64,000 nt of DNA, taken from the NCBI RefSeq assembly GCF_036365525.1, contig NC_090412.1, positions 25,376,459-25,440,458 on the forward strand. Direction: 5' to 3'. A program made the position numbers and the translations under genes. The notes beneath the pieces were generated by a model. That model saw only the letters and a list, made by a program, of their open reading frames with translations. It was not told the origin of the DNA and did no database searches. Shown here piece by piece: positions 11,416-55,204 of this stretch; positions within the stretch are counted from its first letter, which is position 1; each line of letters starts with the position of its first letter. Source of the stretch: Heterodontus francisci. Lineage: Eukaryota.

Positions 11416-11452
11416 AGTTCTGATGAAGGGTCACAGACCTGAAACGTTAACT
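11416..11452 (+). ncRNA. Minimal type I hammerhead ribozyme motif (Penelope-associated)
   Basis: AGTT-CTGATGA-AGGGTCACAGACCT-GAAA-C-GTT-AACT: stem I AGTT/AACT, conserved core, stem II, palindromic stem III (AACGTT), GUU cleavage triplet. Confidence 0.75.
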
Positions 11453-11519
11453 CTGTTCCTCTCTACACAGATGCTGCCAGACCTGCTGAGTATTTCCGGC
11501 ACTTTCTGTTTTTTATTTT

Positions 11520-11830
11520 TTATTTAGAGATACAGCACTGAAACAGGCCCTTCGGCCCACCGAGTCTGTGCCAACCAGCAACCACCCATTTATACTAACC
11601 GTACAGTAATCCCATATTCCCTATCGCCTCCCTACACTAGGGGCAATTTACAACGGCCAATTTACCTATCACCTGCAAGTCTTTTGGAGGTGGGAGGAAA
11701 CCGGAGCAACCGGCGAAAACCCACGCAGACACAGGGAGAACTTGCAAACTCCGCACAGGCAGTACCCAGAATCGAACCCAGGTCCCTGGAGCTGTGAGGC
11801 TGCGGTGCTAACCAATGCGCCACTGTGCCA
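11520..11830 (-). mobile_element. HE1/V-SINE inserted in the Penelope 3' region
   Basis: V-SINE consensus; Penelope tail resumes at tttcaaagttccagcatccacagtatttt. Confidence 0.85.
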
Positions 11831-12309
11831 TTTCAAAGTTCCAGCATCCACAGTATTTTGCTCTTATTCCTTCAGAATCTTGTATGTTTCAATGAGATCA
11901 CCTCTCCTTCTTCTAAACTGCAGAGAGTATAGACCCAATGTACTCAGCCTCTCCTCAAGACAACCCTCTCATCCCAGGAACTAATCGAGTGAACCTTTGA
12001 TGTACTGCCTCCACGGCAAGTATATCCTTCCTTACATATGGAGTATTCCAGGTGTGGTTTCACCAAAACCCTATACAATTGTGGCAAGACTTCTTTATTC
12101 TTGCACTCCAATCCCCTTGCAATAAAGGCCAACATGCCATTTGCGTTCCTAATTCCTTGCTGTACTTGCATGCTAACTTTCTGTGTTCCTTGTAGGAGTA
12201 CACCCAAGTCCCTCCAAAGATCAACATTTACAATTTTCATGCCTTTAAAAAAACAGTGTATTACAATATAAGAGGAGAGAGACAGTCATTGAAAATAGAG
12301 TATTATAAG

Positions 12310-16730: not shown

Positions 16731-16975
16731 TAAAATAGTGTATTATACTATATACAGTGAAAGGCTGTAAATGAAACAGATTGTATTATAATACATACAG
16801 AAAAGATACAGTTCGTATAACACTATTATAATAAATACAGTAAAGACTGTCTGTGAAACACAGTATTATAATATATGGAGAGAGTCATTGAAAATAGTGT
16901 ATTATGTACAGGAGAGAAACTCTCAGTGAAACAATGTATTATAGTATATACAGGAGGGACTATAGTGTATATACA
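16731..16975. repeat. Degenerate 44-bp satellite units
   Basis: Same unit motifs (gtgtattata...caggagag...gtgaaaca). Confidence 0.75.
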
Positions 16976-34641: not shown

Positions 34642-34928
34642 CTGTGATAAACAGCCAGCCCCAAAAGCTGCCAGTTTCAGTCGTCACCTGCTTTCAACTG
34701 ACGGGCAGAGAGCTGTATGAACAGGAATCGTTGTAACTTATTTCTCCTAACACAATAAGTATAATCACTGAGCACAGATCTGCTGTGCTCTCAGTGTCTC
34801 GGGTAACATCGAGTTCAATTGTAATTAGAGTCTTGCTCATTTAGAATATAAGGACTTCCCTTTATATAGCACCTTTCATGTCCTGAGGACACCCCAGAAC
34901 ACTTTAAATCCAATGAAGTATTTTTGTA

Positions 34929-35039
34929 ATAAAAACAGACATTTCTGGAAATACTCTGCAGGTCTGGCAGCATCGGTGGAGAGAGAAACAGTGATGAAAG
35001 GCGATTGATCTGAAATGTTAGCTCTATTTCTCTGTCCTC
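34929..35039. mobile_element. Short Penelope-derived fragment with inverted piece and decayed hammerhead core
   Basis: Antisense PLE tail followed by TGATGA...GAAATGTTAGCT; TSD AAGTAT(T/C)TTTGTA (34916-34928, 35040-35052). Confidence 0.65.
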
Positions 35040-36209
35040 AAGTATCTTTGTAGTTCCTGTTGTAATGTGGGGAACACAACAGCCGATTTGCACGCAGAGT
35101 GACCACCAGCCATTATGAATGGTGGCTCAGTGAGGAGCACTCTTGTTCCTGGGTCAGGAGATTCTAAGTTTAAATCCTGCTCCAGAGACTGTAATCTAGG
35201 CTGATACTTCAATGGAGTACTGAAGGACTGCTGCACAGCAAGGTCCCACAAACACCAGTGAGATAATTGCTTTTAGCTATAAATATTAGGCAGAACACCG
35301 GGGCAAACTCCTCTCTACTTCTTCGCATAGTACCATGGAATCTTTTATATCCACCTGGGCAGGCAGACAGGGTTAACTTGGCCTGCAAAGGGCAGCACCT
35401 CCACCAGTGCAGCACTCCCTCAATTGCTATGCTGGAGTGTCAGCCTAGATTACATCTCAAGTCTCTGCAGTGAGTCTTGGACACACACACCCCACTGAGT
35501 CACAACTGACACTGGCACCAATCGTCCTCATCCTTGTCTGTGAAGGAATCAGTGAGATTTTGTGTGGCTGTGGAGGGAGAGGGTAAGCAGATGGGAGATT
35601 TATTGGAATGAAATGGAGATTCTAGTATTCCACCCTTCTTAACCTCAGCAGGATTCTGATACAAACTGACAAGTGAAAATAGCTGTGCTGGAAAGGAGTA
35701 GCACAGCCTGTTTTCTGAAGGAATCAGCAACCGAGAGCTGGGAAAGCCCCAGCTGAAGGGCTTGCAGTCCTTGTAGGCCTGTACAAACTGCACTGCGACA
35801 CTCAGTAATCCCTTGACCCTGTGGCTTAATTCAAATATCTTTTTCAGCGCTGTGACATACACGGCAGGAAGGCTGCACATTCACGAGCTGGTCAGTGCAA
35901 ACCTGATCTCAGGGGCTAGGGTTGGAATAATAAATTGACCTTCTCCCACCCTCCCCAAGGAAGGGCTCCAGCTTTTGATTGGTATCTACTGACCCCTGCT
36001 GGATGCTGCCTGTGTGTGGGATGGTAGATGGGAACAGAATGGGGTACGGATGCCAAGAGCGATGCGACCTATGCTGCAAGGCACTGGACGGAAGATGCTA
36101 ACAAATGAAAATGTTGTCAAGCCCTTTCTTATAAGATGGAACCCTTTATAACTTTGTTTCAGTTGAAAAGGCCCCGAAGAGAGATATATAGTCAGTAATA
36201 GTAAACGAC

Positions 36210-36825
36210 ATAGGAGCAGGAGTAGGCCATTCAGCCCTTCGAGCCTGCTCTGTCATTCTAGGCCATGGCTGATCGTCTCAATGCCATCTTCCCGCGCTAT
36301 CCCCATATCCCTTGATGCCATTTTACAACTAGAAATATATCAATCGCTGTCTTGAATTTACAGTGACTGAGCTTCCACCACCCTCGGGGCAGAGAATTCC
36401 AAAGATTCACCACCTTCTGAGTGAAGAAGTTCCTCCTCATCTCAGTCCTAAATGGCTTGCCCTTTATTCTGAGATTGTGTCCCCTAGTTCTAGACCCCAC
36501 AGCCAGGGGAAACATCCTTTCTGCATCTACCTTGTCTATCCCTTTAAGAATTTTGTAAGTTTTCATGAGACCGCCTCTCATTCTTCTGAACTCCAAATCT
36601 CTCCTCATAGGATAATCCCTCCATCCCAGGAATCAGTCTGGTGAACCTCCGCTACACTCCCTCTATGGCAAGTATATCCTTCCTCAGGCAAGGGGATCTG
36701 AACTGCATACAATATTCCAGGTGCAGCCTCACCAATGCAGTATACAATTGCAGCAAGGCTTCTTTGCTCCTGTACTCAAATCCTCATGCAATAAAGGCTA
36801 ACATAGTTTGCCTTCCTATTTGCTT
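36210..36825 (-). mobile_element. CR1 3' fragment
   Basis: Minus-strand KTYKILKG...RTRGHNL...RRNFFTQ; CR1 tail. Confidence 0.85.
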
Positions 36826-37094
36826 GCTTTCAAGAAAGAATGACTTGCATTTATATAGCGTCGTTCATGACCTCAGGACATTCCGAAACACTTTACAGCC
36901 AATTCAGTAATTTTGAAGTGTAGTCACTGTTGTAAAGTAGGAAACACAGCAAGGTCCCACAAACAGCAATGTGATAAATGGTCAGGTAATCTGTTTTAGG
37001 GATGAATATTGAGAAGGATACCAAGGAGAATCGCCTGCTCTTCTTCAAATATTGCCATGGTATCTTTTACATCCACCTGAGAGGGCAGACAAAT

Positions 37095-37800
37095 AGAACC
37101 ATAGAACCACAGAAAAATTACGGCACAGAAGGAGGACATTCAGCCCGTCGTGTCCGTGCTGGCCGATTAAAAAAAAACTAGCCGCCCAATCTAATGCCAC
37201 CTTCCAGCACCTGGTTCATAGCCTTGCCGGCACTTCAGGTGCAGGTCCAGGTACCTTTTAAAAGAATTGAGGGTTTCTGCCTCTACCACCATTCCTGGCA
37301 GTGAATTCCAGACACCTACCACCCTCTGGGTGAGAAAGATTTACTCATGTCTCCTCTAATCCTTCTACCAATCACTTTAAATCTGTGCCCCCGGTAATTG
37401 ACCTCTCTGCTAGGGGAAACAGGTCCTTCCTGTCTATCTCGGCCCCTCATAATTTTGTACACCTCAATTAAGTCACCCCTCAGCCTCCTCCGTTCTAAGG
37501 AAAACAACCCTAGCCGATCCAATCTTTCTTCATGGCTGCAATTTTCAAGCCCTGGCAACATTCTTGTAAATCTCCTCTGTACTCTCTCCAGAGCAATTAT
37601 GTCCTTTCTGTAATGTGGTGACCAGAACTGCACGCAATACTCCAGCTGTGGCCTAACCAGCATTTTATACATTTCCAGCATTTATACATTTCCTGCTTTT
37701 GTTTTCTATACCTCGGCCAATAAAGGAAAGCATTCCATATGCCTTCTTTACCACTCTATCTACCTGTCCTGCCACCTTCAGGGACCTGTGGACATGCACT
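37095..37800 (-). mobile_element. CR1 3' fragment
   Basis: LEYCVQFWSPHYRKDI...RRLRGDLIEVYKIM. Confidence 0.88.
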
Positions 37801-38464
37801 CAGTTTAACATCTTGTCTGAGACATATTAAGACAAAGATTTACACTTGGAAGGCTGAGAGTGACCTGATCCCTGACCCTCATTGGTCCCACTGCTGTACA
37901 TGACCCGACCAATTTGGGAAGCGCTGAATCATTAGTTACAGACATTTGTGGCATTTTAGCCAAAGTTCTAGAGGTGTGACAAGGTCAGCGTGAGGACCAT
38001 TGAGTGCAATTGAATGGGGTCTCAGGACAGTCAGGGGTCATGGTCAGTTGGGGGTCATGGGTCAGTCAAGGGTCTTGGGCCAGTTGGGGATCTAGGGTCA
38101 TTTGGAAATCTTGGGACACCTAGGGATCTCTGGTCAGTTGGGGATCTTGGGTCATTCAGGAGTTCAAGCTGGTCAGGGGTCTTGAGCAGATCCAGTGAAA
38201 GGACAGCCACACACTGGTAACAACTGATAACAGTAACACAAGTATTTTTATATTGCCGATTACAAACAAGCCTTCTCATGATCATACCTGGGCAGATTTG
38301 ATAGCAGATTGAGTTAGTAGTGTTCAGCATCATCATAAAATGTTTGGGCTCCAAACTCAACGATTGCAGGAAGATCCCACAGGACAAAGGCCGCTTCTGG
38401 GTGTGGGGACGTATAGTAAGGTCTAGTCAGACTACGGTTACAACCGACTGGTTTCAGTGAGGAG

Positions 38465-38845
38465 TAGAGTCACCAACTCTGGATGGACACATTCCTGGAG
38501 GTCTCATCGCATGTCCTGCCCTCCTTCAACCACCCCACCCCCACGATCCTGCCATTGGTCCCCCAACATGTCCATCCTCATGAAGCCCTGCCTTCTCTCA
38601 GCCAATTGGAAAGCATCCTTACCTGATTGGATGACTGTTGACGGTCAGTCAAACAGCCTTTGTTTCCAATCTCCAATATTTGTTACAATTAGTAAATGAT
38701 AGTCTTCAAAGAAAAGGGAGAATAATGCTCAATTATCATGAATGCATCTATGGTTTTTGTCCCGGGTTTGCTTGTAGCAGTATCCTGGAGATCAATCATG
38801 AATTCCTGGATCCTCCAGCACAATCCTGGAGAGTTGGCAACTTTG
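38465..38845. mobile_element. Old hAT-like MITE
   Basis: Imperfect TIRs TAGAGTCACCAACTCT / AGAGTTGGCAACTTTG; no clear TSD. Confidence 0.4.
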
Positions 38846-41319
38846 CAGGGCAGGAGTGGGTGCTCAGTGATAATTTTGATATTGAAGAAAACCACAAAGA
38901 GAATATCTGAGGCTCGATTTAAAAAAAACAGTATTAAAAAAAACTGTACAGTTGGAACAATTAGTTCATTTTTCCACGTGGGTGTAGGATTTAAAATAAA
39001 ATACCACCCCGCCCCCATCTGGTTTTACACTGGGCAAAAAAATGGTGTCAGCCATGCGCAACACCAGTGTCAAAAAGTAACTCTAACTACTGGCTGAGAA
39101 GGTTCATGGGTTTATTATTTTTTTTTTGCACAGAGAGCCTGTGGAGCTGGAGTGAATGATAAATGCCTTGTATCGATTGTCCTGTGTAGTAGACTCGGGC
39201 TGATAGAGAGTAATTAATGACTCTATTTGTTTCTGTACCGAGGAGAACAATTGAGTTTGATACAGCAACAACTGGTGCCAGTGTGAAAGGCCCCTAGGGA
39301 GCCGTCCAGGAAAAGCCTGTACTGAGACGGCAACACAGATCCATGGCCATATCCCTGAGATGCTATCTATATTGTAACAGATACAATTTGACATGGAAAA
39401 GAAAGTACAAACGTGATGGTTGAGGCGAACAAAGATTTGTTTAATAGATAGGGGAAGAGCAATGACATAACCAAGAAGGACAATATGGAGGATATTCCTC
39501 GGTAACTGGTACACACCTCCAGTTTTCTCCTCTGTTGATAGATCAGAGATGACTTAAGGAGCATCTTTTAAAAAGGTTGCTGTAAACAATGTAAATAATT
39601 TATTTCCCCATTAACTCTTTGACAGCTTACACTTAACAATTATACTTCCACTGCATACAAATGTAGAATGGGCCATGGAAAAGGAATATCCCACCGGTGC
39701 TCAGACTGCGACTGATCAGAGTTCACAGTTTTACTGCTAATACTGTTGCTTCTACAACAACCAGCTGCATTTATATAGCACCTTTAATGAAGAAAAATGT
39801 CCTGAGGCATCTAAGGTAAAAGCTAGGTTTGGGGTCTTTCAGCAGGTCTCAAAGGGTCTCAGACTGGTTCTCAGCTTTCAGCTGATGTGATAACAAGTAT
39901 CTGCTTCTGCAATGTGCGTTATTAATTATAAGCTGAACCCCTTTATTAGATTGCAGCAATGGATTGCAGAAATCCATTATTCTATATCACAAACCACTCA
40001 AACCCCTTGATTAGATCTCAGTCTATAACTCACTCCAGGGGATCCATTATTCTATATATCAACAATCCAAACCCCACGATGAGATCTCAGCCTTTAACTC
40101 ACTCTCTGCTGTTTGCTGTTCTAAACATAAGCCACCTAAACCTCCCGATGAGATGCCAGCTTGTAACTTGCCCTACCTCATAGGAACCCCTTGATTTGAT
40201 TAAAATGTGCAAAACCATCATCACCTCGCAGCCAACAGTCTCGATGAGACTTCTCTTTATAATCCCAGCCATATAGGAGTGTTTGTGTGGGACACGCATT
40301 GTGTGGGTTTCTGTTATTTACCCCACACAGGCAAAAAAAGCCAGAGATAGGTTCAATACAAATGTAGTGGCTTGCTATAAGGTGATGGTATTTTCTTTCC
40401 CCGAGTTGGTTTAAGCTCATCTCCTGGCCTAGCCAAGGAAAGGTCAAGCCTTGAAATGGAACAGCAATAACACCCTGAAATAGTACTATCAGTGAAACAT
40501 GATTGATCAATTGAATTCCATAGCTGTGAAAAATGCGGGATTAAGTAGAGTATTATACGCACAATGAGTTGAAGCATGATGTTCATTTCAAGTTCATTTC
40601 TGGAGCCTTTGCCACGAGATCAGGCAATCAATAGGGCCTTGCATATCATATATCACCCAGCATTGGAAAGAGAACATAATCTGCAGCAAATTTAGAATGA
40701 CAGATTTGTTGGTATCAAAAGCCCCAGACTAAACTGCGAGTGCCACAGCCAGCACTGAGAGAGATGGCTGACAGTTGGAAAAGATTTAAGAGGCTGCTTG
40801 TGATAGAGGGAAGGAAAGACATCATGCATTAGAATCAGGTGCAATGAGGAGGGGGGATTCAGATGAACAGAGCAAAATTAAATGCAGCCCCGCATCTGTG
40901 TCTCAGGCATAGGACTCGATCTTGGAAAATAACAATTCTGAATTGAGAATTCAAATATAAAGTGTTTTGACGATACAATATACCTTCCCAATTCATATAA
41001 TAGCAATGTTACATTAGGCTCTTGTGCAGTATGATTTACTCAGTGCTTTACACTTTGATCAAGCGTTTAGGGCCAATTCAACAAGGATTGTTAGTAGGGA
41101 GGATTGCTCGCAAAGTTGGGACTTCATGTTGTAACCATATTCCCAACTTGTGGTTCCATCCAGCGAGACTTCAGTGCTGGAGCGTAGCCATGCTGCCCGT
41201 GCCCCTCCATGCTCTGTGGAGTAGGGGGGGAAATTACTCATGGTGTTAGCCATATCCTTTGGTATTTGGAGCTTTAATCTGAGCTTGGATCACCATTTGC
41301 ACTTTCAGCTCTGTATCCG

Positions 41320-41745
41320 TTCTGTTTTCCACATTATGAAAAGGATATAGAGGCATTGGTGAAGGTGCAAAATAGATTTACAAGAATGCTACCAGAACTG
41401 TGAGGTTATAAGAATCAGGAAAGGCTGAACAGACTGAGGCTATTAGGTTATGAAAGGGTTCCGTTGGTTAGATGTAGAGAAAATGAGGGAACCCAAAACT
41501 AGGCATTATAAGTATGATAGGGATAATAAATCCAATTGGAAATTGTTCAGGATATGAAATCCCCTACCACAGGGAGTAGTTGAGATAAATAGCATAGATT
41601 CCTTTGAGGGGAAGCTAGATAAACACATGATGGAGAAAGTAATAGAGGGTTATACTAATAAGGTTAGATGAAGAAGGAGAGGAATGAATTAACACTAGTA
41701 TAAGCCAGTTGGGCCAAATGGCCTGTTCCTGCGCTGTACATACTA
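41320..41745 (+). mobile_element. Old CR1 3' fragment
   Basis: aaggatatagaggcattgg...agatttacaagaatg...gggccaaatggcctgttcct tail. Confidence 0.7.
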
Positions 41746-43032
41746 TGTCATTCCACATAGTAGACGGGTTCACTTGCAATCCCATACTTGTAACTATTGG
41801 AATAAGTTTTATAAAAGCAGGCACCCAGGGCAAAAAAACATGAAGCAGCACATCTGTCTTCACTGAATTGACAAGTGGACTCACCTTTTACCCACCTCTG
41901 GGACTTTCCAAATGCCTATTTTGGGATATAGTGAGAGTGAGTCAGATACTCTTTATCGCAGTATTGGTGAGGGGTGGGGGGTAGGGTGCGATGGTGTTTG
42001 TGTGGAGAGTCACTAAAATCCTCATTTGTGATCAAAAACACTTTGATCCAATTCAGCGACGATCAGTAGCAGTAACAGAGACTGCCTCAATTTTCTCACT
42101 TCCCCAGAAAGCACAGTGCAAAACATAGATGACCCAAATACTGATACTCCAGGCAGTGCTGCCCCTCAGGAGAACAGGGGGTAGAAATTCCTGCCCTGTG
42201 ACAGAGATGAAAGTCAGGCACAGGCTTGGCAAAGGACCTAGAGATTGCTAGAGATTGGGTCAGAAACAGGATTGATTGGGTTCCTGCCCCACTCTGAGCT
42301 GAAGTGAACAGGCGTGAAGAAGTCTGGTACTTCTGCTCATCCCATTTGGAGGAGTTTGCAGGAGGAACTGGGGGCATTCCTAGACTATTCCAGGGACAAG
42401 CCTCTGATAGGCCCAGCATTGTCGCCATCCAGGTGCTGAGAGCAGGCATTAAATACCAACCTGGGCCACATGTGCTTTTGGATCCGCAATGGAACTGGAT
42501 ATTGGGCCGGGCGTATAAGAGGCAGCCGATAGGATACTGCCCATTTTCGGCTGCCGCCAAGACAGATTCCTACTCCATTATGGCTTCTCACACCGACAGT
42601 GGAGTCAAAATGGTGGCCATGTCTCAGTGATGTCATTAGCACCTGACGTGCCGACGTAAGAAGGGACCCCACAGATTTCAGTTGGGTGTCCTTGCTGCCT
42701 GCTCAGGTGAGCAAGTTAGAACAGGAAACTGTCAGCTCCCCAGGGCAAATAAGCAACCTGGGAGAATTTAAGTGCCCACCTGCCACTGAGTGGGTAAGAC
42801 TAAAATCACATCCCCTTCTAATCTCTAATATTGGTCAAGTCTTGTGAAACTTTGTGAATCGAGCACATTTCTCAATTGACCAAATGTCTTTCGAGAGCGG
42901 TATTAATTTTCACTTTACTGAGCTCTTCAGCCTATGTGGATCAGCAGACACTATTTAAAATGTGAAGAAAATACTCCTTATAATTTAGACAAAAAAAAAC
43001 ATAAAATGCAGTTTGTGTCCTCTTCCTCTTAG

Positions 43033-43208
43033 ACACCCAAGATAATTCCGGGCCAAACGGTGATTCTCAGGGAACTGCGGAGAGCGTACGGAAGCAGCTG
43101 CGAAGTGAAGCCTTTGCCCAGCAGCAGTTGGAGGCCCTGGAACGTGTGTTTGAGCGCCAGCACTATTCAGACGTCTTCAACGCTGGAGAACACATCAAAT
43201 CAGAACAG
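43033..43208 (+). CDS. pax2: Pax2/5/8-family internal coding exon (partial homeodomain), Pax2-like; Pax8 orthology not excluded
   Basis: Pyrimidine tract + AG acceptor (tcctcttcctcttag) and GTGAGT donor; 176 bp, phase 1 to phase 0. Encodes (D)[58 protein letters not shown], matching the recalled PAX2 segment PNGDSQ...RKHLR...QQQLEALDRVFER...EHIKSEQ. Confidence 0.9.
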
Positions 43209-43289
43209 GTGAGTCTGCTTTCCATCCTGAAGGTATTTGGTGGGAGGGCGAGTTTACCCTACACGCACAAGAGAACGTTTGAACTTTTT

Positions 43290-43745
43290 AGGTGGTTCAG
43301 TCGGTGGCACTTTCACCTCTGAGTCAGAGGTGGGTTCAAGACCCAATCCTGAGACTTGAGCACAAATATCTGTGCCGATACTCCCAGTGCTGTTCTGGAG
43401 GAGGACTGCACTGTTGGAGGTGCCATCCTGCGGATGAGACGTTAGACTGAGGCCCCGTCTGCCCTCTCAGGTGGACATAAAAGAACCCATAGTGAAAAAG
43501 AGAAGGGGGGTTCTCCCCAGTGTTCTGGCCAATATTTATCCCACAACCTACGTCGATGCAAAAAAAGGCAGATTATCTGGTTATTATCACATTGTTGTTT
43601 TTGGGGTCTTTCTGTACATAAATTGGCTGTCGCATTTCTTGCATCACAGCAGGGACGATGCTTCAAAAATATGTCAATGGCTGCAAAGTACCTTGGCATT
43701 TCCTGAGGTTGTTAAAGGCACTAGATAAATGCAAATATTCTTTTC
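43290..43745 (+). mobile_element. Deu-domain SINE, full length
   Basis: tRNA head (ggttcagtcggtggcac...gggttcaagaccc), Deu core, tail gttaaaggcactagataaatgcaa. Confidence 0.8.
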
Positions 43746-43914
43746 TTAATTGATAAGTTACAGCTTGCACTTATATATAAAATCTATGCACCTTAATGGT
43801 TGCTGTGTTGTACACAGTCCTTTGTGTCCTTTGTTTAAATTGTCTGAATTCCTCAATGTGCTACTGTTGTGTACACACTCCCAGGAGTGTGATATCTTGT
43901 ACGTTAACCATCTG

Positions 43915-44640
43915 AACCAGATTGTTTGCAACCTTGGTGTCACATTTGACCCCGAGATGAGCTAACGACCCAAATCCGCGCCATCACTAAGATCGCCTGT
44001 TTCCAGCTCCATAACATCACCCGACTCCACCCTTGCCTTGGCTTATCTGCTGTGGAAACCCTCATCCATGTCTTTTTTACCTCTAGACGTGACTATGCTA
44101 ATGCACACCTGCCTGGCCTCGCACATTCTACCCTTTGTAAATTTGAGGTCATCCAAAACTCTGCTGCCCATACCCTTACTTGCACCAAGTCCCGTTAATC
44201 TCTCACTCCTGACCTACATTGGCTCCTGGTGAAGCAATGTCTTGATTTTAAAATTCTCATCCTTGTTTTCAAATCCCGCCATGGCCTCGCCCCTCCCTAT
44301 CTCTGTAATCTTCTCTCACCCCTCAACCTTCCGAGATATCTGCATTCATCTAATTCTGGCATCTTGAGCACCCCGATTTTAATTGCCCCACCATTGGCGG
44401 CCGTGCCTTCAGCTGCCTAAACCCTAAGCTGTGGAATTCCCTCCCTAACCCTCTCCGCCTCTCTACCTCTCTTTCTTCCTTTAAGATGCTTCTTAAAACC
44501 TACCTCTTTGACCGAGCTTTTGGTCATCTGCACTAATGTAGTCTTATGTGACTCGCAGTCTAATTTTGTTTTGTAATGCTCCTGTGAAACACCTTTGGAC
44601 ATTTAATTGTGTTAAAGGTGCTATATAAACACTAGGTGTT
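43915..44640 (+). mobile_element. L2 LINE 3' fragment
   Basis: NLGVTFDPEMS, LIHVF.TSR.DYAN, LHWL.V...FKILILVFK motifs; L2 3' tail aaaggtgctatataaa. Confidence 0.8.
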
Positions 44641-45873
44641 GTTGGTGTTGAACCCTTTGGTGTTTATGCATTTCCATCATCTGTTGGTCTAAGTGAAGGT
44701 TATTGTAGCCTAGTGGCTGTGGCATTGGATTAGCAACCCAGTGATTGTAAGATCATAATCCACCCGTGGTAAATGATATAATTGAATTCAGTGCACCTGA
44801 CTGGCACCACAAAATGACCACGAAAGCTATGGGATTTTTGTTGTAACAATCCAATTGGGTCACTAATGTCCTTAAGGGCATTATACCCAGTCTGGCCTGT
44901 ACATGACTTGAATCCCCCACTGCATGGTTGACTCTTAATGGCCCCAGGGCAACTAGGAACGGACAGTAAATACCACCTTGCGCGTGTTGCCACATCCCAA
45001 GAACAAATATAACAACATGAATCAGAAACTGCCAGCTATCTGTTATCCTGTACGTCAACCATCTGACTTCCTCGATGTATCACAGCTATCTACACGCTCC
45101 TAGCTATCTGTTATCCTGTATATTTGTTATCCTGTAAACCATATAAGCCAGTTGATGTGTCACAGCTGTGTACATGCTACTGACTGGCAACCTTTGTACA
45201 TCCCACCTGAACCCCTTGATGCAGTCGTGCTGTGTACACACATTTTGCTATCTACTATTACACATCCAGCTCATACTTCGCTAAAGCGAACAGGTAAAAC
45301 AGGAATCCACCCAATGTTTAACCTCCTCTGGTGGCACACTGATTAACATGTTGATGTAAACTTCCTTCGTGGTCTGTTTCAACACAGTTGCTAAACTGCT
45401 TAGATAAACATTTTAGCAATTGATTTAAATAGCATGCCATGGAGGGTTTAACCAGTTAATGCAACCTGTCCACACAATGTAACCCTTTAAACCCTGGTAT
45501 CATTCTGGTGAATCTGTGCAGTACCCCCAGTAAGAAACTGGAATTAATGAATACTAGCATTTCTGCTATAAGACCTTGAATACAAATAATTGCATTAAAA
45601 ATTTGCAGTTAAAGGTTTGAAACAGAAAGTGTTTCTAGTAAAAGTGTTTTTAGTGAGTTTACAGTGAGACACTTATAGTTGGATAGTTTGCAGTGATAGA
45701 TTTTATCGGGAGAGAATTTATATTCAGTTTGGAGCTTGTTCTCAGAGTTTACACTGAGTGTTTACAAGGATGAAGTTTGTAGTGAGAGTTTATAATGAGA
45801 TTATTTATACTGATACACTTTATATTAGGAGAGATTACAGTAAGAAATTTTACAGTGAGAGTTCGAAGTGAGT

Positions 45874-46553
45874 GGCCGGAATTTTACCGCCCGCCCCCCC
45901 AACAAGTGGGCTGGAGCCGGGGGCCATAACATTTAGTGGAAGGTGGGGGGCTGTTCCTGATGCTTTCCCACTGCAATTTTACGCGGGGTGGCAATGGCAA
46001 GAAACAGACGACCCCCCCAGACCAATCAAAGCCCTTAAGTGGCCAATTAACAGCCACTTAAGGGCCTCCACCTGCTGCTGTTGTTAGTTTACCCATGGTT
46101 GGGGGAGGGGGGGGGGGGTGGGGGAGGGATGGTAGCAAAGCCCCAAGAAGTCTGCCAGATAAAACCTGGTGGCCTTCTTGCGGGCTGTGGGGTAGGCCCT
46201 GCTGATCGGGCACCCTGTGCCCCACGGATGTCCGCTTCCAAAGCCCCAACTGCCCCCACCGCACAACACTCCAGCCCCACCTCCAACTGACCCCCCCCCC
46301 CCCCACCCTTGCCTCACCGGAGACCGGCCAATTGTCCCTGGTGAGGCCCCAAAAACTTATCCGTCTTCTGCGGCCATCCTTCATCTGGCTTGTGCTGATT
46401 GGCTGGCACTCCATCAGGCGGGACTTCCTGCCTCAGTTAAGGGCTTAGGGCATGCAAAATCCCAGCATGGCTCCCCAGGTCCAGCGGAGGCGGGCTCACC
46501 ACCGACTTTCTAGCTGGTGAGCGGGCCCTCCCACCCAACGTAAAATTCCAGTC
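45874..46553. mobile_element. PIF/Harbinger-like MITE
   Basis: TIRs GGCCGGAATTTTAC / GTAAAATTCCAGTC; 3-bp TSD AGT. Confidence 0.65.
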
Positions 46554-46784
46554 AGTGTGTATACTGAAAGAGATATCAGTGAGCAAATATATGGTGATAC
46601 ATCCTGCAGTCAGAGTTTTTAGCAAACAATTTTCATGAGAAAGTTTATGTTGAAAGTTTGTATTGCAGAAGTTCAGAATGTGAGACATTGTAGTAAGAGA
46701 GTTATGAAGAGTGAAGTTACAGTCAGAGAGATTCTACAGTGACGACACTTCACAAGTACTTAATTGGCTGTAAGCACTTACAGC

Positions 46785-48360
46785 CATGTGGTGCCATTAT
46801 TCAAGAAGGGTAGCAGGGATAAACCAGGCTGGTGAGTCTAACATAAGTGGTTGGGAAAATATTGAAAAAAATTCAGAGGGACAGGATTAATCTCCACTTG
46901 GAGAGGCAGGGATTAATCAGGGATAGTCAGCATGGCTTTGTCAGGGGGAGATCGTGTCTAACTAACTTGATTGAATTTTTCGAAAAGGTGATTAGATGTG
47001 TAAATGAGGGTAAAGCAGTTGATGTAGTCTACATGGACTTCAGTAAGGCTTTTGATAAAGTCCTGCATGGGAGATTGGTTAAGAAGGTAAGAGCCCATGG
47101 GATCCAGGGCAATTTGGCAAATTGGATCCAAAATTGGCTTAGTGGCAGGAGGCAGAGGGTGATGGTCAAGGGTTGTTTTTGCGAGTGGAATCCTGTGATC
47201 AGTGGTGTACCGCAGGGATCGGTGCTGGGACCCTTGCTGTTTGTAGTGTACATTAATGATTTAGATGTGAATATGTGAGGCATGATAAGTAAGTTCGCAG
47301 ATGACACGAAAATTGTTGGTGTCGTAAATAGTGAGGAGGAAAGCCTTAGATTATTGGGCGATATAGATGGGCTGGTAAAATGGGCGGAGCAGTGGCAAAT
47401 GGAATTTAATCCTGAGAAGTGTGAGGTGATGCATTTTGGGAGGACTAACAAGACAAGGGAATATACAATGGATGGTAGGATCCTAGGAAGTACAGAAGGT
47501 CAGAGGGACCTTGGTATACTTGTTCATAGATTACCGAAGGCAGCAGCACAGGTAGAAAAGGTGGTTCGGAAAGCATATGGGATACTTGCATTTATCAGCT
47601 GAGGCATAGAATATAAGAGCAGGGAAGTTATGATGGAGCTTTATTAACTGCTATAATAAAAGCAAAATACTGCGGATGCTGGAAATCTGAAACAAAAACA
47701 AGAAATGCTGGAATCACTCAGCAGGTCTGGCAGCATCTGTGGAAAGAGAAGCAGAGTTAATGTTTCGGGTCAGTGACCCTTCTTTATTAACTGCTAGTTA
47801 GGCCACAGCTGGAGTACTGTGTACAGTTCTGGGCACCACACTATAGGAAGGATGTGATTGCACTGGAGAGGGTATAGAGGAGATTCACCAGGATGTTGCC
47901 TGGGCTGGAGCATTTTAGCTATGAAGAGAGACTGGGTAGGCTAGGGTTGTTTTCCTTGGAGCAGAGAAGGCTGAGGGGGGACATGATTGAGGTATACAAA
48001 ATTATGAGGGGCATTGATAGGTTAGATAGGAAGAAACTTTTTCCCTTAATGGAGGGATCAATAATCAGGGGGCATAGATTTAAGGTAAGGGGCAGGAGGT
48101 TTAGAGAGGATTTGAGGAAAAAGTTTTTTACCCAGAGAGTGTTTGGAATCTGGAACACACTGTCTGAAGAGGTGGTAGAGGCAGGAACCCTCACAACATT
48201 TAAGAAGTATCTAGATGAGCACTTGAAATGCCATAGCATACAAGGCTATGGGCCAAGTGCTGGAAAATGGGATTAGAATAGATAGGTGCTTGATGGCCGG
48301 CACGGACACGTTGGGCTGAGTGGCCTGTTTTTGTGCTGTATGACGCTATGACTCTATGAC
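46785..48360 (+). mobile_element. CR1 LINE, 5'-truncated (same subfamily as 15277-16730)
   Basis: SQHGFVRGRSCLTNL, DFSKAFDKV, GVPQGSVLGP, KFADDTK; (ATGACT)n tail. Confidence 0.92.
47654..47781 (-). mobile_element. 128-bp Penelope 3'-end insertion inside CR1
   Basis: Perfect 15-bp TSD CTTTATTAACTGCTA (47639-47653, 47782-47796); minus strand starts (G)AAGGGTCACTGACCCGAAAC and ends gtattttgcttttatta. Confidence 0.85.
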
Positions 48361-48599
48361 TTCGGGAAGTCTTAAGGTTGTGAAAGGCACTATCTACATT
48401 CTTTCTGTCTTTCTTTCTTTCCAGAAAGTTTACAATGGGAGAGTTTATACTAGTTACAGTCCCAGCCAGTGAGGACACCTGGGCCAGAAATCTGGCTTGG
48501 GTGTTGGTGCAAAACAGGCGGAATCGGATTGGCCGCCCGTTATACCCAGCGTCTGATAGGCAATTGTACTGCAGTCAACAAAATTAAATATCAGACGCT

Positions 48600-49265
48600 G
48601 GGTAGAAACAGAAACTGAACTGGACCAGCCCTATAAATACTGTGGCTACAAGATCAGGTCAGGGGATGGGAATTCTGTGGTGAGTAACTCACCTCCTGAC
48701 TCCCCAACGCCTGTCATCCATCTACAAAGCACAAGTCAGGAGTGTGATAAAATACTCTCCATTTGCCTGGAAGAGTGCAGCTCCAACAACACTCAAGAAG
48801 CTCGACACTTCAGGACAAGTGTCCAGAACACTTCTCTAGGACAAAGCAGCCAGTTTGATTGGCACCCCATGAACCACCTTAAACATTCACTCCGTCACCA
48901 CCAACGCACAGTGACAGCAGTGTGTACCATTTACAAGATGCACTGCAGCAATGCACCACGCCTCCTTTGGCAGCACCTTCCAAATCTGTGACCTCTTCCA
49001 CCTAGAAGGACAAGGGAAGCAGATGCATGGGAACACCACCACCTGCAAGTTCCCCTCCAAGAAATATATCACCGTTCTTTCACTGTCACTGGATCAAAAT
49101 TCTGGAACTACCTCTCTAACAGCACTGTGGATGTACCCACATCACATGGACTGCAATGGTTCAAGAAGGAAGCTCACCACCACCTTCTCAAGGGCAATTA
49201 GGGATGGGCAACAAATGCTGGCCTTACCAGCGATGCCCACATCCCATGAAACAAATAAAAAAAAT
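48600..49265 (+). mobile_element. Non-LTR retrotransposon 3' fragment (CR1/L2-related clade uncertain)
   Basis: Degenerate IYKAQVRS..EYS..W and SL.H.RTVAA motifs; tail gggcaattagggatgggcaacaaatgctggcc...atcccatgaa. Confidence 0.7.
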
Positions 49266-50149
49266 ACCCAAGACAGATTTCTTGCCCCAGGTGTGTAGAC
49301 TGAAAGGGTTCACAGTGAGGAAGTTGATAGTGAGTTTAAACAGTGAGACAGTTTACTGTGAAAGGGTTAATAGTGCGAGAGCTTACAGTGAGAAAGTTGA
49401 TAATGAGTGAGTTTACTGCAAGAAAATTCAGTTTGAAAATTTACAGTGCAAAAACCTTTCACGAATGGCTTTACAATATGAGGCTTTATACTGACAGAGT
49501 TTGCAGTGAGATAATTTGTAATGAGAGATTTTATAAACCTTATCAGTTCATGTAAACTCTCCTAACTATTTTCATCACCATCGCTTTGCCCTTACCATCT
49601 CCTGTGTTCTCTCTACTCCTATGAACTCGATCACTGACCAGGTCATCTCCAAACCCTTCCTTGTATGCCCCATCACCCGCATGCCTCCAATTCTATCTCA
49701 TTCTGTATTTGTCCCTGGGGGAAAAAAAACTTCCTTCAAGTGACTTTCCAACTGGCCAACTTTCAACTCTCCATTAGCTTCAATGCCTCTGCAGCTGTCT
49801 ACTTGCTGAACCACATTCCCACATGTACCGTTGATACCCTTGACCCCATAAAACCATGATTGTCTCTTACCCTGGTTGTCCCCCAGTACAGCCTCCATCC
49901 TCACTCATTTGAGTCAAAGGGGTGCAGATTTAAACCTCTCTGATGCACCATCCATTTCCAGATCTTGTTGGCCCACACCAAGATCTAACAGGCTTCACTT
50001 TTCTCTTGCAAAAGCCACCACTAGTCTAGGATCATTCTGGAGCAAACAGACAAAGCCAGCTTCTTTACTGCGCTACCATTCATCTTCTGAAACCCCTCTA
50101 CCCTACCCCTTCCACCCTCACATCTAACAACAGGTGTGAGTATTTGTAG

Positions 50150-51000
50150 TGAGAACATTTATTTTGAAAGAGCTTCTGGTGAGTTTTAGTTAGATTTATA
50201 GTGAGAGAGTTTTAGTGATTGAGTTTATTTTGATTGAGTTTATAGTGAGGGTTTATAGGGAATTTATAGGGTGATTGTTTATAATGATTGAGGTTTTAAT
50301 TAGTTTATGTTAATTGTTTTTGTCATGAGAGTTTATAGTTATGGAGTTTATATTGAGAGAGATAAAAGTGAGAAAGCTTTTTTGAATGAATTTACACTGA
50401 GAGAGGCCTTAGTGAAAGGGTTTATAATGCGTTTATAGTGAAAGGGGTTATAGGGAGAGAGTTTGTAGTGAGAGAGACTTTAGTGCCTGTAGTTTCGGTG
50501 CTACTGGTGATGTTTTAGTACCAAAATGGCATCTGTGCCACTCGCAATTACTTCTCACATAGCCTGTGCCAAAAGCCATCTTGGTGAGGATATTCGGAGT
50601 GTGTTGGAATTATGCAGAGTAGGCATTACCACCAGAGCTTCACTGATAACCTCAGGAGAAGGATGTGGAGGAAGCCCTGTAAGTGCTAGCCTCACACGAA
50701 CTTGGGTCACCTACTGAGGTGTGCAGCCATTCAACAGGGTGTTCAGTGCTGAGCTGCACATCACAAACGTTATAATTAGCAGGCAGCACTAAGTTTGCAT
50801 GCTGCCTGCATTAGCTTGAATGGGCGTGGGTTAATTGCACATCGCAATCCCCCACCCGTTTGGGGGGGGATTTTGCACCCAGAGAATTTATGAGAGAGTT
50901 TATGTTGAGAAAGTTTATAATAGTTTAATTTAAGAGTTTATTGTGAGAGTTTATGGTGAGAATTTTTTTGTGTGATTACAGAGACAGTGTGAGTTTGTTG
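50150..51000. repeat. Degenerate ~15-bp tandem repeat (GAGTTTATAGTGAGA-like); related tracts at 45640-45870, 46560-46740 and 49290-49540
   Basis: Recurrent tttatagtgag/tttacagtgag motifs; interrupted at about 50480-50880. Confidence 0.65.
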
Positions 51001-52699
51001 AAAGGTAGTAGGTATAATAGAATCTGTACACATATTGTCTCTCCACCTACACTTTGCTAAAATCATTGACTTCTTGCTAGTGTAGAGTTTCTTTTATGCC
51101 TCGAAGCCTCAGGTACTTGACCCCACAGCCAGGTTTCATGTCCAGACCGAGACTGTGAACGTTAGCTGGGTATTCTTGTATGGGAGGCTGATCCGGCCGT
51201 TTTCCAATGTGCAATCCCTGGGATAAGAATCAAGAACAGGGACCCTGATTAAATTCCTCCTCCTTACCCCAGCGGCAAAGTTCTGATCCTACCTAAGATC
51301 AGCACATACCAGCAATGGGCACTAAGACCTGGCCAATAAGGCTATGACCAGTGGGCGGTGTCTTTACTCCTGGATTATGTGGGAGGAGTTGTATAATAAA
51401 ATTAGAAAGTTTATGAAAATAGGTTGGCGGTGAAAGCTTGTAATGATGGATTGAAATGTTGACCTTTGACCTTACAAAGTAATGGCCAGTGCCGTACAAA
51501 TACATATGGATCAGATATTGGCCTGGGGTGAATTAGCTCTATTCAAAAGAGGGAATTGTAACCACAGCGCACCAGAGAATCTGTCAGGCCTGTAACTTGC
51601 CAAGCAGGTTTTGAAGCAGGCTTCTTGACAATGTACTGCCCCTTTGAAGTGAAGCCCCATGCAGAGACTGTTTATCTTAATGGAAAAGAAATTACAGTTG
51701 AATGTCACTATGAATCTCCAGCATCATAAATGAGGGCTGTGGCCGTATACAACTTTTTATAGCTGCTGCCTTATTACAATGGATAACCTTTATTTACTTT
51801 CATTAGACTATTAAACAACAAGAGACTATTAATTTTTCGTCTGAAACTCCATCCGAGCCCATAAAGCAAACCAGTTGCTTAATTGAGTTCATTTTAATTT
51901 CCCTCCAATCGCACTGAATTACTCCAGTGATAAATCAGGGGGACAGGCCTCACCCCCAGTAGAAAGCCTAATTTGCAGCTAATTAGAAAACTGATTCCCA
52001 GTGAAAGATCAATACCACAACGAATTGGAAATGACTTGCAATCTCCACGTCGGAGACGGAAAGAGCGAGTGAGAGAGAAAGAAAGCATGTGGAGAAAAAG
52101 AAAGGCAATACAGCCATGTGTCTGGAGTGCAGGGAAAAAAAATCAGTTTTAATCTAATGTAATATTAATCAGGACACTTGGCTTGCTGGTCCTTTTGTTG
52201 TTTTTTCATCTTTGTAAAGGTAGCTTTGAGATGTAGCTGTCGGTTTGGAAAGCCGCTTGATATAATCGGACGTGTTTTTAAATTCAATGAGTCGCCACCC
52301 CACACTCCTGTACTCTGTGGCTTCTCTTTTCAAAACCATCTCTGCGTTGGGGAATTGCTATTATGCATTTGAATGCTATTAAAAAAGGGAACATCCCCTG
52401 CAGCTGGGCGACAGTTGTAGGAGACAATCAGGGGTTAGCTGTTGTTGAATGAAACAAAGCAAGGTCAGTGAGTGGCCTACCAAGACATGACCACTTGGGG
52501 TATCACTCCATTCGTAGGTCATTCCAAAAAGTGCCACAAAACTGCAGACATTTTTATCTATCCTCCCTCCATCTCTTCCTTACTTCCGCTCTTCCGTCTC
52601 CTTTTGTTCGCCCACCTCTTTTGTTGTTCTTCCTTTATTCTTTCTGTTTTTCACCCTCTTCCTTTCTTTCCTGCTTCCTTCCTCATTCTTTGTTCCATC

Positions 52700-53660
52700 T
52701 ATCGCTGGCAGTCAAGTGTTATTCATTGCCGCTTGAGTTATTCTTTTGATTCATTTTGTCCTTATTAACAAGGTCATTGTGACAGATTTGTGCTGCAATA
52801 TTCCTAGAGGATTGCTTTACCGTCAGTCTAATGGGAATCACTTTAGCCCTGAAATTCAGAGAAGGTGGGAGAGAAAATGGGACAGATCCTGGCTCTATAT
52901 TTCGACCGGACCTTGGAATTCCAGTCAGCAGAACCATGATTGGATATTCTCCGCTCCCCACCTCCACACCCCATGTCAAGGGGTTGTGTTGGCCTGAATT
53001 CCTTAGCTTCTATGAGGCCTCAGCAGAAGTCCTGCCATTGGAGACCTAGCCATTTGAGACCTTGTAAAATTGTTACTGGAGTAAGGTCATCACTATAGGA
53101 GGGGACAGATTAACTTTTCATGCTGGAGTGGTCCTAGTGGGAGGTGAAGAACCAAAAAATAAATTTCTGTTGTCCATTTGGGTCTTTGGAGGACTCCAAT
53201 ACTCCTCAGAGTGATGAATTGGCTCAGCTCGTGGTGGCCACCATTGAGGACTCTTTGCTGGATTGAGGCTCCGCAATTAGAACCCTTACAGACAGAGGAG
53301 ATTTTTATCCCATTAGTCTGCCCTGTATTTGACCCCAGGTTCCAGAGGTGAAGGTCTAACCCACTGCTGCACCTCATTTTGTACTAGATTCATGTGTGCT
53401 ATTCATGTGAGCCTTCCTGCTGTGATGTACAGCAATGCACTTGAGTTGAACACTTTTCACCTGTCATAGTGACATGTGAAGAAAATTCTGCACAGACTTC
53501 ACATCAGAGATCGGAACTTGCTCTCTTTTTCAGATCCCATTGTAACATTACCATAAGCATCACTCTTGCTAGCCTGCATCACTGTTAATTGTTAATAAGG
53601 ACAAAATGAATCAAAAGAATAACTCAAGCGGCAATGAATAACACTTGACTGCCAGTGATA
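52700..53660. repeat. 72-bp inverted repeat pair (52700-52771 / 53589-53660)
   Basis: 71 of 72 positions are complementary by direct reading. Confidence 0.9.
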
Positions 53661-54310
53661 AAGGCTGCCTCTGTGATATGTTTATGATACTCACCCCTCA
53701 GTCTCTTACTTATCACAGTTCAAGTCACACTCCAGAAAGTTGAACCCAAAATCCAGACTGACACTGCAGTTCAGTACTGAGGGAGTGCTGTACTGTTGGA
53801 GGAGTTGTCTTCTGGATGAGGCGCTAAACTAGGGCCTACTTCTGCACCTAATTTGTATGTTTGTATGTATCTGCCTTTTCAGGTTGGTCTAAACATCCCA
53901 TGGCACTATTTTGAAGAAGAGCAAGGGAGGATCTGAATCCCAGTATCCGTTATATGCAGTATCTTACTCCCAGTGTCTGTTATTTCTTGGAGTTCACTAC
54001 TGCCAGTGTCTGTCATTTTCTGTATCTCACTCCCAGGTCTCTGTGCTCCCTGTATCTCCTTTCCAGGGCCAGTTCCTCTCTGTATCTCACTCCCAGATCT
54101 CTGTTGTTTGTGTCTCACTTCCAGATTCTCCATTATGCCACACTTTTGGAATGTAAGGTAATATTCATTCTCCATCAGTCTTCTTTGAGAAAACTAAAAT
54201 GAAATTTCTATTTTTTGAGTGGAGGGTTGTAAAGTCACTTGCAAGGAATCCAAAGCAAACTCCAGTCAATTTCCCCTTCATTACACCTTCATTTTTTGTG
54301 TTTCTCTCAG

Positions 54311-54437
54311 GCTAATGAATATTCCCTCTCTGCCTTGGCCTCTGGATTGGACGATGTCAAAAGCAGCCTCTCCGCCGCTGCTACTCCCGACCTTGGCACC
54401 AATGTTACAGGGCCCCAGAGCTACCCTGTTGTGACAG
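54311..54437 (+). CDS. pax2: Pax2/5/8-family coding exon following the partial homeodomain
   Basis: tttctctcag acceptor and GTAAG donor; 127 bp, phase 0 to phase 1, in frame with the previous exon. Encodes [42 protein letters not shown](G), matching recalled PAX2 GNEYSL...GLDEVKSSLS...YPVVTG. Confidence 0.9.
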
Positions 54438-54960
54438 GTAAGGTGTCGACCTCATCCCCCACCTTAGTAATACAAATGGCAGCAAGTCTTGAGTAAAAAT
54501 ATTTCCGTCAGATAACGTGCGTTGTCATTTTGATTGCAAATATTTTTGTTGTATCAGATGGATGGTTTTTCTCATGGTCACACAATTAGTGGTGCATTGC
54601 AACATGATCTGTGTTCACAAAGTTAAAGTATAAATTATTTGCCTCCCCCAAATCTTTCAATACTTTAGGTTGCAGAACACCTCGGCTGGCAACACACAGC
54701 TGGTAACAGGGTAAAGAGACGAGTGCAGGTGCACTCTAAGAACAGCCAGTATGTTGAATGGGAATTTACTGTCATCCTCGTGGGATGGCCAACTGTCTGC
54801 TTTTGAGCTGGGCTCTAGTTTCTGCTGCTTTAAAGCAATAAAAAGCAGATGTTAAAAGAGCATTTCTCAATTTGTGAAGAAATGCCTGGCCAGTTGTATC
54901 AGAGGACACCAAGTTAATTTATTTAAAAATCAGATGCTAATTAACATGTAATAGATAGTA

Positions 54961-55192
54961 CACAAACAAGAAATGCTGGAAATACTCAGCAGGTCTGGCA
55001 GCATCTGTGGAAAGAGAAACCGAGTTAAAATTTTTAGTCAGTGACCCTTCCTTAGAACTGATGAAGGGTCACTGACCTGAAACATTAACTCTGCTTCTCT
55101 CTCCACAGATGCTGCCAGACTTGCTGAGTATTTCCAGCATTTCGTTTTTGTGTTTCAGATTTCCAGCATCCGCAGTATTTTGCTTTGATTTT
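54961..55192 (+). mobile_element. Palindromic Penelope-derived mini-element with hammerhead core
   Basis: Inverted arms around CTGATGA (55058); TSD TGTAATA(G/T)ATAGTA (54947-54960, 55193-55206). Confidence 0.85.
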
Positions 55193-55204
55193 TGTAATAT
55201 ATAG

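What the first reader, a model, noticed from the sequence alone, without database searches (positions are those of the whole stretch)
34929..55192. Family of tiny TSD-flanked Penelope derivatives whose breakpoints cluster at the hammerhead core
Three independent short insertions (34929-35039, 47654-47781, 54961-55192) consist only of the terminal ~110-230 nt of the PLE seen at 11416-11870. Each has a 13-15-bp TSD. In all three the hammerhead-sense segment starts within about 5 nt of the CTGATGA core (TGATGA at 34992, GA at 47782 on the minus strand, CTGATGA at 55058). Inference: either a non-autonomous ribozyme-bearing mini-retroelement (retrozyme-like) mobilised by the PLE, or a strong RT stop/template-switch site at the ribozyme fold. 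The starts lie upstream of the GUU cleavage site, so simple cleavage products do not explain them.
Basis: partly seen in the sequence, partly recalled or inferred. Interest (0 to 1): 0.75.

Follow-up and report, generated by a model that had tools for sequence, protein, structure and literature searches.

The report
Penelope retroelement run-off copies
These tiny insertions are short end-copies of an ordinary, very abundant Penelope-like jumping gene, and genome-wide about half of the copies that reach its hammerhead ribozyme motif stop within a few bases in front of it, likely because the copying enzyme runs off the start of the element's RNA there.

Summary
The three insertions and their 13-15-bp target duplications are real. 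They are 5'-truncated copies of a 3.3-kb Penelope-like element (PLE) found whole elsewhere in this genome. The window's 'parent' is itself a ~2.9-kb SINE-interrupted copy, not a 455-nt element. The breakpoint cluster holds genome-wide: about 49% of exact copies that reach CUGANGA end within 9 nt upstream, peaking at -3/-4, the first bases of helix I. There is no peak at the cleavage site or at the helix feet, and no excess loss further upstream. Short and long copies intermix on a tree, so this is not a separate retrozyme lineage. Inverted copies pair one short-tail with one long-tail arm (13 of 14). Best reading: dead-end run-off cDNAs, primed at the two known internal start sites and ending at a fixed RNA 5' end, probably a capped transcription start (Inr-like YCAGTT; G excess 43% vs 28%). 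No RNA 5' end was measured. Two earlier notes of this scan reported the same pattern in other genomes. The product class is known, but the sharp edge makes the open question of pseudo-LTR regeneration testable.

The parts
34929..35039 (.). Short inverted PLE insertion 1: minus arm 34929-34991 (+33..+97, short tail end), plus arm 34992-35039 (+1..+48, no tail end)
34916..34928 (+). Left TSD of insertion 1 (right copy 35040-35052), 13 bp, 1 mismatch
47654..47781 (-). Short single-arm PLE insertion 2, start +3..+6, long tail end; sits in a LINE-like repeat with an empty paralogue near 16144
47639..47653 (+). Left TSD of insertion 2 (right copy 47782-47796), 15 bp exact
54961..55060 (-). Insertion 3, inverted arm, -5 to about +95 (short tail end)
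55058..55192 (+). Insertion 3, forward arm, 0..+134 (long tail end); shares 3 nt with the inverted arm at the junction
54947..54960 (+). Left TSD of insertion 3 (right copy 55193-55206), 14 bp, 1 mismatch
8950..11870 (+). Long 5'-truncated older copy of the same PLE (starts ~2.2 kb upstream of the core; broken RT/GIY-YIG coding DNA), interrupted by two SINE copies; possible 11-bp TSD with 1 mismatch at 8940-8950 / 11871-11881
11416..11452 (+). Minimal type I hammerhead of the long copy: helix I 5' strand 11416-11419, core from 11420, predicted cut after 11448, helix I 3' strand 11449-11452
   Evidence: sequence; architecture as described in PMC4209133
11516..11829 (-). SINE inserted at the short-tail site of the long copy (a second copy at ~10485-10840 carries a tRNA-like head); not part of the PLE

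Best explanation
The short insertions are 5'-truncated copies of the genome's own autonomous Penelope-like element that end at one of two tail sites and pile up at the first bases of hammerhead helix I, likely because the reverse transcriptase starts internally near the front of the element's RNA and runs off its 5' end, which is probably a capped transcription start at about -4. SHOWN: a full-length parent (pLTR-ORF-pLTR) exists; 3' ends are bimodal (~+97, ~+132); 5' ends have a sharp edge at -3/-4 with no excess loss upstream and no peak at the cleavage site; short and long copies intermix; inverted copies pair a short-tail with a long-tail arm. FROM THE LITERATURE (lizard Poseidon element in vitro): two internal RT start sites define the tail, both target strands are cut and extended, RNA downstream of the start sites is required, and ribozyme cleavage is dispensable. 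INFERRED: both target strands prime on one RNA at the two sites; the cDNA end is joined to the target or to the other cDNA by microhomology or snap-back; the copies are dead ends because the downstream RT-binding RNA is not copied; the other half of cDNAs pass the edge by a template jump or come from RNAs that start further upstream.
For: Full-length copy L131: pLTRs of 524/522 nt, 97.7% identical, around an RT ORF; GIY-YIG domain in L133. 3' ends: 54 short, 69 long, 10 other of 133 arms. Genome-wide exact counts: 60,576 at 0; 50,142 at -3; 41,872 at -4; 32,626 at -5; 24,285 at -9. That is 16.5% and 22.1% loss at the single steps -3>-4 and -4>-5, against 2.5%/nt from mutation and 2.6%/nt over -9..-18. 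The edge also holds in non-inverted copies: 11 of 35 TSD-defined single insertions start in -7..-1. Of the 40 best-scoring copies joined to the ORF start, 5 stop inside the first 14 nt, 4 of them at -5/-4. Y-C-A-G-T-T is nearly invariant at -6..-1 in 30 long copies and fits the initiator consensus (recalled). G precedes AGTT in 3,965 of 9,246 non-C cases, 43% vs 28% expected; an untemplated 5' G is linked to cap copying in L1 (PMC9341517). Inverted pairs: 13 of 14 short+long (p 8e-4; 11 of 12 by strict end classes), and 6 of 6 fully seen pairs in 20 young loci. Tree.
Against: No RNA 5' end was observed: only assembled contigs were available and they cannot show starts. About half of the cDNAs pass the edge, and 35 of the 40 best ORF-joined copies extend past -14 (ranking favours longer matches), so a second process must be added. 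In D. virilis Penelope the mapped start lies about 120 nt upstream and an intron ends at helix I (PMC2377424, PMC4209133), and the sequence here also reads like a 3' splice site. Ends are spread over -1..-7, not one base. The G excess is partly a fold-back junction (615 copies); 40% remains after removing it, but other junction types are not excluded. Insertion 1's plus arm has no tail end and needs priming at a non-tail site.
Confidence: 0.62

Rival explanations
1. The template is continuous and the RT terminates or switches template at -4 because of local sequence or structure (helix I 5' strand, the TCAG-TT-CTGA near-palindrome, or bound protein).
For: Stereotyped fold-back junctions exist at the edge: 615 copies against ~120 by chance; TCAGAACTGA-type junctions recur. 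It needs only one RNA species and explains why half of the cDNAs read through.
Against: There is no peak at the 3' feet of helices II or I, where stalls are expected. Non-inverted copies joined straight to target DNA show the same edge (11 of 35). It does not predict the G excess at -5 or the complete lack of excess loss at -10..-18.
Confidence: 0.17
2. The RNA end at the edge is made by processing rather than initiation, for example at a 3' splice site (branch-like TTCTAA, pyrimidines, CAG|TT) as in D. virilis Penelope, or by a nuclease.
For: An acceptor-like motif is conserved across subfamilies at -19..-3. In D. virilis the intron ends at the 5' end of helix I (PMC4209133).
Against: Upstream flanks of 45 edge-class arms share nothing but inverted arms, so no common first exon is attached. 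The acceptor would give a start at -2, but 41,872 of 60,576 copies keep AG at -4/-3 and the largest step is -4>-5. The branch-like A is only 11 nt from the AG. No GT..AG joint ending there was among the joints shown (55 further joints were not shown).
Confidence: 0.1
3. The short copies are a separate non-autonomous, ribozyme-bearing SINE or retrozyme lineage that is transcribed and re-mobilised by the PLE in trans.
For: Very high copy number; uniform size; TSDs. Non-LTR retrozymes derive from PLE pLTRs (10.64898/2026.07.22.740005). One head-to-tail dimer was seen.
Against: Short (51) and long (35) arms intermix: 26 changes vs 27.3 shuffled, with an identical short/long pair (100 columns only, weak support). 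5' ends are ragged rather than inherited. Units are dispersed, not tandem. They lack the RNA downstream of the tail that a PLE RT needed in vitro (PMC11167929). There is no peak at the cleavage site.
Confidence: 0.07
4. Ordinary random 5' truncation or an alignment artefact of subfamily divergence.
For: Truncation does occur everywhere (about 0.01/nt downstream, 0.001/nt far upstream).
Against: There is an 8-fold local peak with p 5e-19; exact-word counts agree; the region upstream of the edge is conserved among long copies; TSDs abut the edge.
Confidence: 0.02

Closest known systems
5'-truncated and inverted insertions of EN+ Penelope-like elements (PMC8557442; passages seen)
   Same: High 5' truncation, partial tandems forming pLTRs, an adjacent inverted 5'-truncated copy, a 30-40-bp optional tail, and a hammerhead in the pLTR.
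   Different: The passages read describe no fixed 5' edge at helix I and no rule that inverted arms use different tail ends.
Poseidon PAc of Anolis carolinensis, in vitro mechanism (PMC11167929; parts 1-2 of 4 and passages read)
   Same: Two internal RT start sites flanking the tail, downstream of the hammerhead; both strands extended; ribozyme cleavage not needed.
   Different: Here the start sites are U-rich rather than an AC-rich loop, the ORF's first ATG lies ~170 nt downstream of the core rather than at it, and the protein has the CX4CxxC linker. That paper's main text does not map a transcription start or genomic 5' ends; its supplements were not read.
D. virilis Penelope internal promoter (PMC2377424; parts 1-3 of 4 read)
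   Same: Transcription starts inside the pLTR at an Inr-type site; solo TSD-flanked copies exist.
   Different: There the start is about 120 nt upstream of helix I with an intron between; here the inferred start is at helix I itself.
Non-LTR retrozymes (10.64898/2026.07.22.740005; parts 1-3 of 5 read)
   Same: pLTR-derived, type I hammerhead-related, non-coding, present in cartilaginous fish.
   Different: Retrozymes are defined as tandem arrays with at least two complete hammerheads. These copies are dispersed, TSD-flanked, usually lack a full ribozyme and form no clade.
Minus-strand strong-stop DNA of LTR retroelements (recalled, no call)
   Same: Works like it: a short cDNA from an internal priming site near the RNA 5' end that runs off the end.
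   Different: Target-primed, integrated directly, no tRNA primer or integrase; the strand transfer step is inferred only.

Membership tests
EN+ Penelope-like element (parent) | Single ORF with RT and C-terminal GIY-YIG endonuclease | tested here: met
   RVT_1 E 1e-4 in L131 and GIY-YIG E 7e-4 in L133, both below Pfam's curated cut-offs; GIY-YIG-type motif visible in the translation. L131 has a frameshift before the endonuclease.
EN+ Penelope-like element (parent) | Pseudo-LTRs from partial tandem, optional inverted copy | tested here: met
   L131 direct pLTRs 97.7% identical; L133 inverted pLTR
EN+ Penelope-like element (parent) | 30-40-bp tail, two 3' ends | tested here: met
   54 short, 69 long, 10 other of 133 arms; ends ~35 nt apart
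EN+ Penelope-like element (parent) | Minimal type I hammerhead in the pLTR | tested here: met
   Core, helix II, palindromic helix III and 4-bp helix I conserved in 30 long copies, by inspection. Rfam gave no hammerhead hit on 54900-55260.
Neptune clade | CX2-5CxxC linker between RT and EN | tested here: met
   CNRRRCNTC in L133; motif as given in PMC8557442, shared with Nematis
Neptune clade | RT phylogeny places it in Neptune | not tested
Non-LTR retrozyme | Tandem repeats with two or more complete hammerheads | tested here: not met
   The three window copies are solitary; 1 short-unit dimer among 133 arms
Non-LTR retrozyme | Own lineage distinct from autonomous copies | tested here: not met
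   26 changes vs 27.3 shuffled; low-resolution tree
Non-LTR retrozyme | Self-cleaved monomer or circular RNA as template | tested here: inconclusive
   No genomic 5'-end peak at +29; RNA data were contigs only
Capped-TSS run-off product | Mapped capped RNA 5' end at -4 | not testable with these tools
   No raw-read or CAGE run was offered
Capped-TSS run-off product | Untemplated G at the 5' junction | tested here: inconclusive
   43% G vs 28% expected, 40% after removing one fold-back class; junctions not inspected one by one

The most novel reading that the evidence does not exclude
The tiny copies are the aborted 'strong-stop' step of the Penelope cycle. The RNA begins at the first base of the hammerhead; a dimeric RT primes both target strands at the two tail sites ~100 and ~135 nt in, runs off the cap, and about half the time jumps to the RNA's 3' end through the repeated -4..tail region. 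That jump would regenerate pseudo-LTRs, making PLEs LTR-like in strand transfer but target-primed, with the ribozyme fold serving as a start or jump landmark rather than a cutter.
Probability: 0.25. Interest if true: 0.78.

Novelty: new variant of a known kind. Interest (0 to 1): 0.48.

Why it matters
How PLEs rebuild their pseudo-LTRs, and what their hammerheads do, are open questions (PMC2377424 says no obvious mechanism for pLTR regeneration; PMC8557442 says hammerhead function is unclear). Tens of thousands of near-identical copies give a base-resolution record of where cDNA synthesis starts and stops in vivo. The record argues against ribozyme-cleaved or circular templates, supports two-strand, two-site priming outside the one element tested in vitro, and names one nucleotide to test by 5'RACE. 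It also warns that many solitary hammerhead hits in vertebrate genomes are PLE debris, not retrozymes.

Tried and rejected
Rfam scan of 54900-55260: only chance hairpin hits far below gathering scores, no hammerhead model hit. RNA: 22 runs listed, all contigs, most only guessed to be RNA; four were laid on L131:3850-5400 and gave no starts, ends or strand. Their depth step at the edge and three back-joints landing at -5..+4 can be genomic copies, so they are not used as evidence. Cleavage-product model: 3 of 133 arms start in +27..+29, no peak. Common upstream exon: none. Helix-I junction as the source of the G excess: only 169 copies, near chance. Whole-region MFE folds did not recover the hammerhead and were uninformative. 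Literature: no paper held all terms for Penelope + Neptune + truncated + hairpin + target site duplication or Penelope + template switch + pseudo-LTR; Penelope + strong-stop gave one unrelated Copia paper (listing only). The Lunse et al. dimer paper was not held. These searches cover open-access text only, and supplements of the papers read were not seen. Dropped rows: 7 of 140 arms under 45 bits; 44 of the remaining 133 arms too short for the tree; 3 tree rows ungrouped.
Full report
Numbering. Position 0 is the C of CUGANGA. Helix I pairs -4..-1 (AGTT) with +29..+32 (AACT), and the predicted cut lies between +28 and +29 (read from the sequence, using the minimal hammerhead architecture of PMC4209133). 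The window is G000:C42:25376459-25440458 in a 6.0-Gb assembly. 'Shark-like' is my recollection from its repeats, not a call result.

1. Observation. All three insertions and their TSDs are as described: 13 bp with 1 mismatch, 15 bp exact, 14 bp with 1 mismatch. Insertion 2 interrupts a LINE-like repeat whose paralogue near 16144 is empty, so its TSD is genuine. Starts are +1, +3..+6 and 0, and the inverted arm of insertion 3 ends at -5. The supposed parent at 11416-11870 is the end of a ~2.9-kb copy (8950-11870) with two SINE insertions.

2. The parent. A DNA search with endonuclease-coding sequence and fetching of flanks gave L131: a 524-nt 5' pLTR, an RT ORF, and a 522-nt 3' pLTR, 97.7% identical. 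Pfam hits are RVT_1 and GIY-YIG, both below curated cut-offs. A CX4CxxC linker points to Neptune or Nematis (PMC8557442, passages); no RT tree was built.

3. End mapping in position-chosen DNA. I took 1.824 Mb in 34 blocks, one of them 264 kb around and including the window. It held 140 arms; 133 at 45 bits or more were kept, in 119 insertions (about 65 per Mb). 3' ends are bimodal: 54 at +89..+105, 69 at +125..+134, 10 other. This is the PLE tail. For 5' ends the stop rate is about 0.01/nt over +7..+34, 0.023 at 0..+6, 0.082 at -7..-1 (32 of 73), 0.006 at -20..-8 (3 of 41) and about 0.001 beyond -50. Expected stops in -7..-1 at the downstream rate: 4.8, p 5e-19. There is no peak at the cleavage site or at the 3' feet of the helices. 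TSDs of 10-17 bp were found in 44 of 119 insertions against 0-3 in five shuffles; 11 of 35 TSD-defined single insertions start in -7..-1.

4. Genome-wide exact counts, young subfamilies only. Copies matching 0..+25: 60,576. Extended to -3: 50,142; -4: 41,872; -5: 32,626; -9: 24,285. Controls: -9..+16, 30,602; -18..+16, 24,183. Mutation alone costs 2.5%/nt, and the step -9 to -18 costs 2.6%/nt, so there is no excess truncation upstream. The steps -3>-4 and -4>-5 cost 16.5% and 22.1%. About 49% of copies that reach 0 end within 9 nt.

5. Not a separate lineage. A tree of 89 arms (51 short, 35 long, 3 ungrouped; 100 columns, poorly resolved) needs 26 label changes against 27.3 shuffled, and one short and one long arm are identical. 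One head-to-tail dimer of short units was found among 133 arms, whereas non-LTR retrozymes are defined as tandem arrays with two or more complete ribozymes (10.64898/2026.07.22.740005, parts 1-3 of 5). Insertion 1 lacks the first core base, insertion 2 lacks the core, and the forward arm of insertion 3 lacks the helix I 5' strand.

6. Inverted copies. Of 14 head-to-head pairs, 13 join a short-tail and a long-tail arm, 1 is short+short and none is long+long (p 8e-4; 11 of 12 by strict classes). All 6 fully seen pairs in 20 young loci agree. Among the top hits, selected for a long arm, the inverted partner is short in 14 loci (two further identical loci counted once) and long in 1. It fits the lizard PAc data: two RT start sites, both strands cut and extended, a predicted dimer, RNA needed downstream of the start sites, and ribozyme mutants still inserting (PMC11167929, parts 1-2 and passages).

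7. What sets the edge. Best reading: an RNA 5' end. YCAGTT is nearly invariant at -6..-1 in 30 long copies and matches the initiator consensus (recalled). G precedes AGTT in 3,965 of 9,246 non-C cases, 43% against 28% from base composition. An untemplated G is associated with cap copying in L1 (PMC9341517, passages). A fold-back junction explains about 500 of these and a helix-I junction almost none; 40% remains. Of the 40 best ORF-joined copies, 4 start at -5/-4, 1 at -10 and 35 run past -14 (biased to long matches). Against it: no RNA end was measured; half of the cDNAs pass the edge; and in D. virilis the start is about 120 nt further up with an intron ending at helix I (PMC2377424, parts 1-3; PMC4209133). 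The motif here also resembles a splice acceptor, but no shared exon precedes 45 edge-class arms, and the peak is at -3/-4, not -2.

8. Mechanism. The PLE protein binds near the front of its RNA, nicks both target strands about 13-15 bp apart, and primes at one or both tail sites (literature, plus the tail, TSD and pairing data here). It copies 100-135 nt to the RNA's first base (inferred) and joins by microhomology or snap-back (junctions seen). The product lacks the downstream binding RNA and is likely a dead end. Longer copies need a template jump or upstream-initiated RNA (not distinguished). Confidence 0.62; rivals: pause or switch site 0.17, processing 0.10, separate family 0.07.

9. Novelty. 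Truncated and inverted PLE copies with tails are known. A fixed edge at helix I and the short+long pairing rule were not in the papers and passages I read (searches; open-access text only, supplements unseen). Two earlier notes of this scan report the same pattern in other genomes (e1-7858714, e1-9867701); they are unchecked AI notes, not independent support. Verdict: a real, non-random feature of a known element class, with a testable mechanistic lead. Interest 0.48.

Noticed in passing
L231-L250; G000-wide: A young, very abundant subfamily (33,787 exact copies of one 51-mer) has CCGA instead of CUGA in the catalytic core (20 of 21 arms covering it). A core change in a highly successful subfamily suggests cleavage is not needed; its catalytic effect was not tested.
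   Followed up: partly
L131:4445-4467: A pyrimidine tract and CAG directly precede the ORF's first ATG: a possible splice acceptor just downstream of the tail. No spliced joint was seen.
   Followed up: partly
L232, L241, L245, L247: Recurring multi-step fold-back junctions at the 5' edge, the same in independent loci; one class has 615 copies genome-wide.
   Followed up: partly
sample blocks on C18 (L145) and C15 (L129), and arms starting at +25 on C3 and C20: Another repeat has inserted inside the hammerhead region of several copies, making a small false pile of starts at +25.
   Followed up: no
window 10485-10840, 11516-11829, 34295-34642, 1330-1651, 4576-4825: tRNA-headed SINE family (HE1-like, name recalled). 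The copies at 10485 and 34295 are 98.9% identical over 348 bp, which suggests recent activity or conversion.
   Followed up: no
window 2-684 and 14843-15276: Degenerate ~43-bp tandem repeat arrays, with shorter matches at 16737-16961.
   Followed up: no
window 55481-55574 (+): ARAGORN calls a tRNA-Thr-like sequence; possibly SINE-derived.
   Followed up: no
L133:2878-3143 and 6436-6641: A near full-length PLE with an inverted pLTR is inserted in a ~70-bp minisatellite.
   Followed up: no
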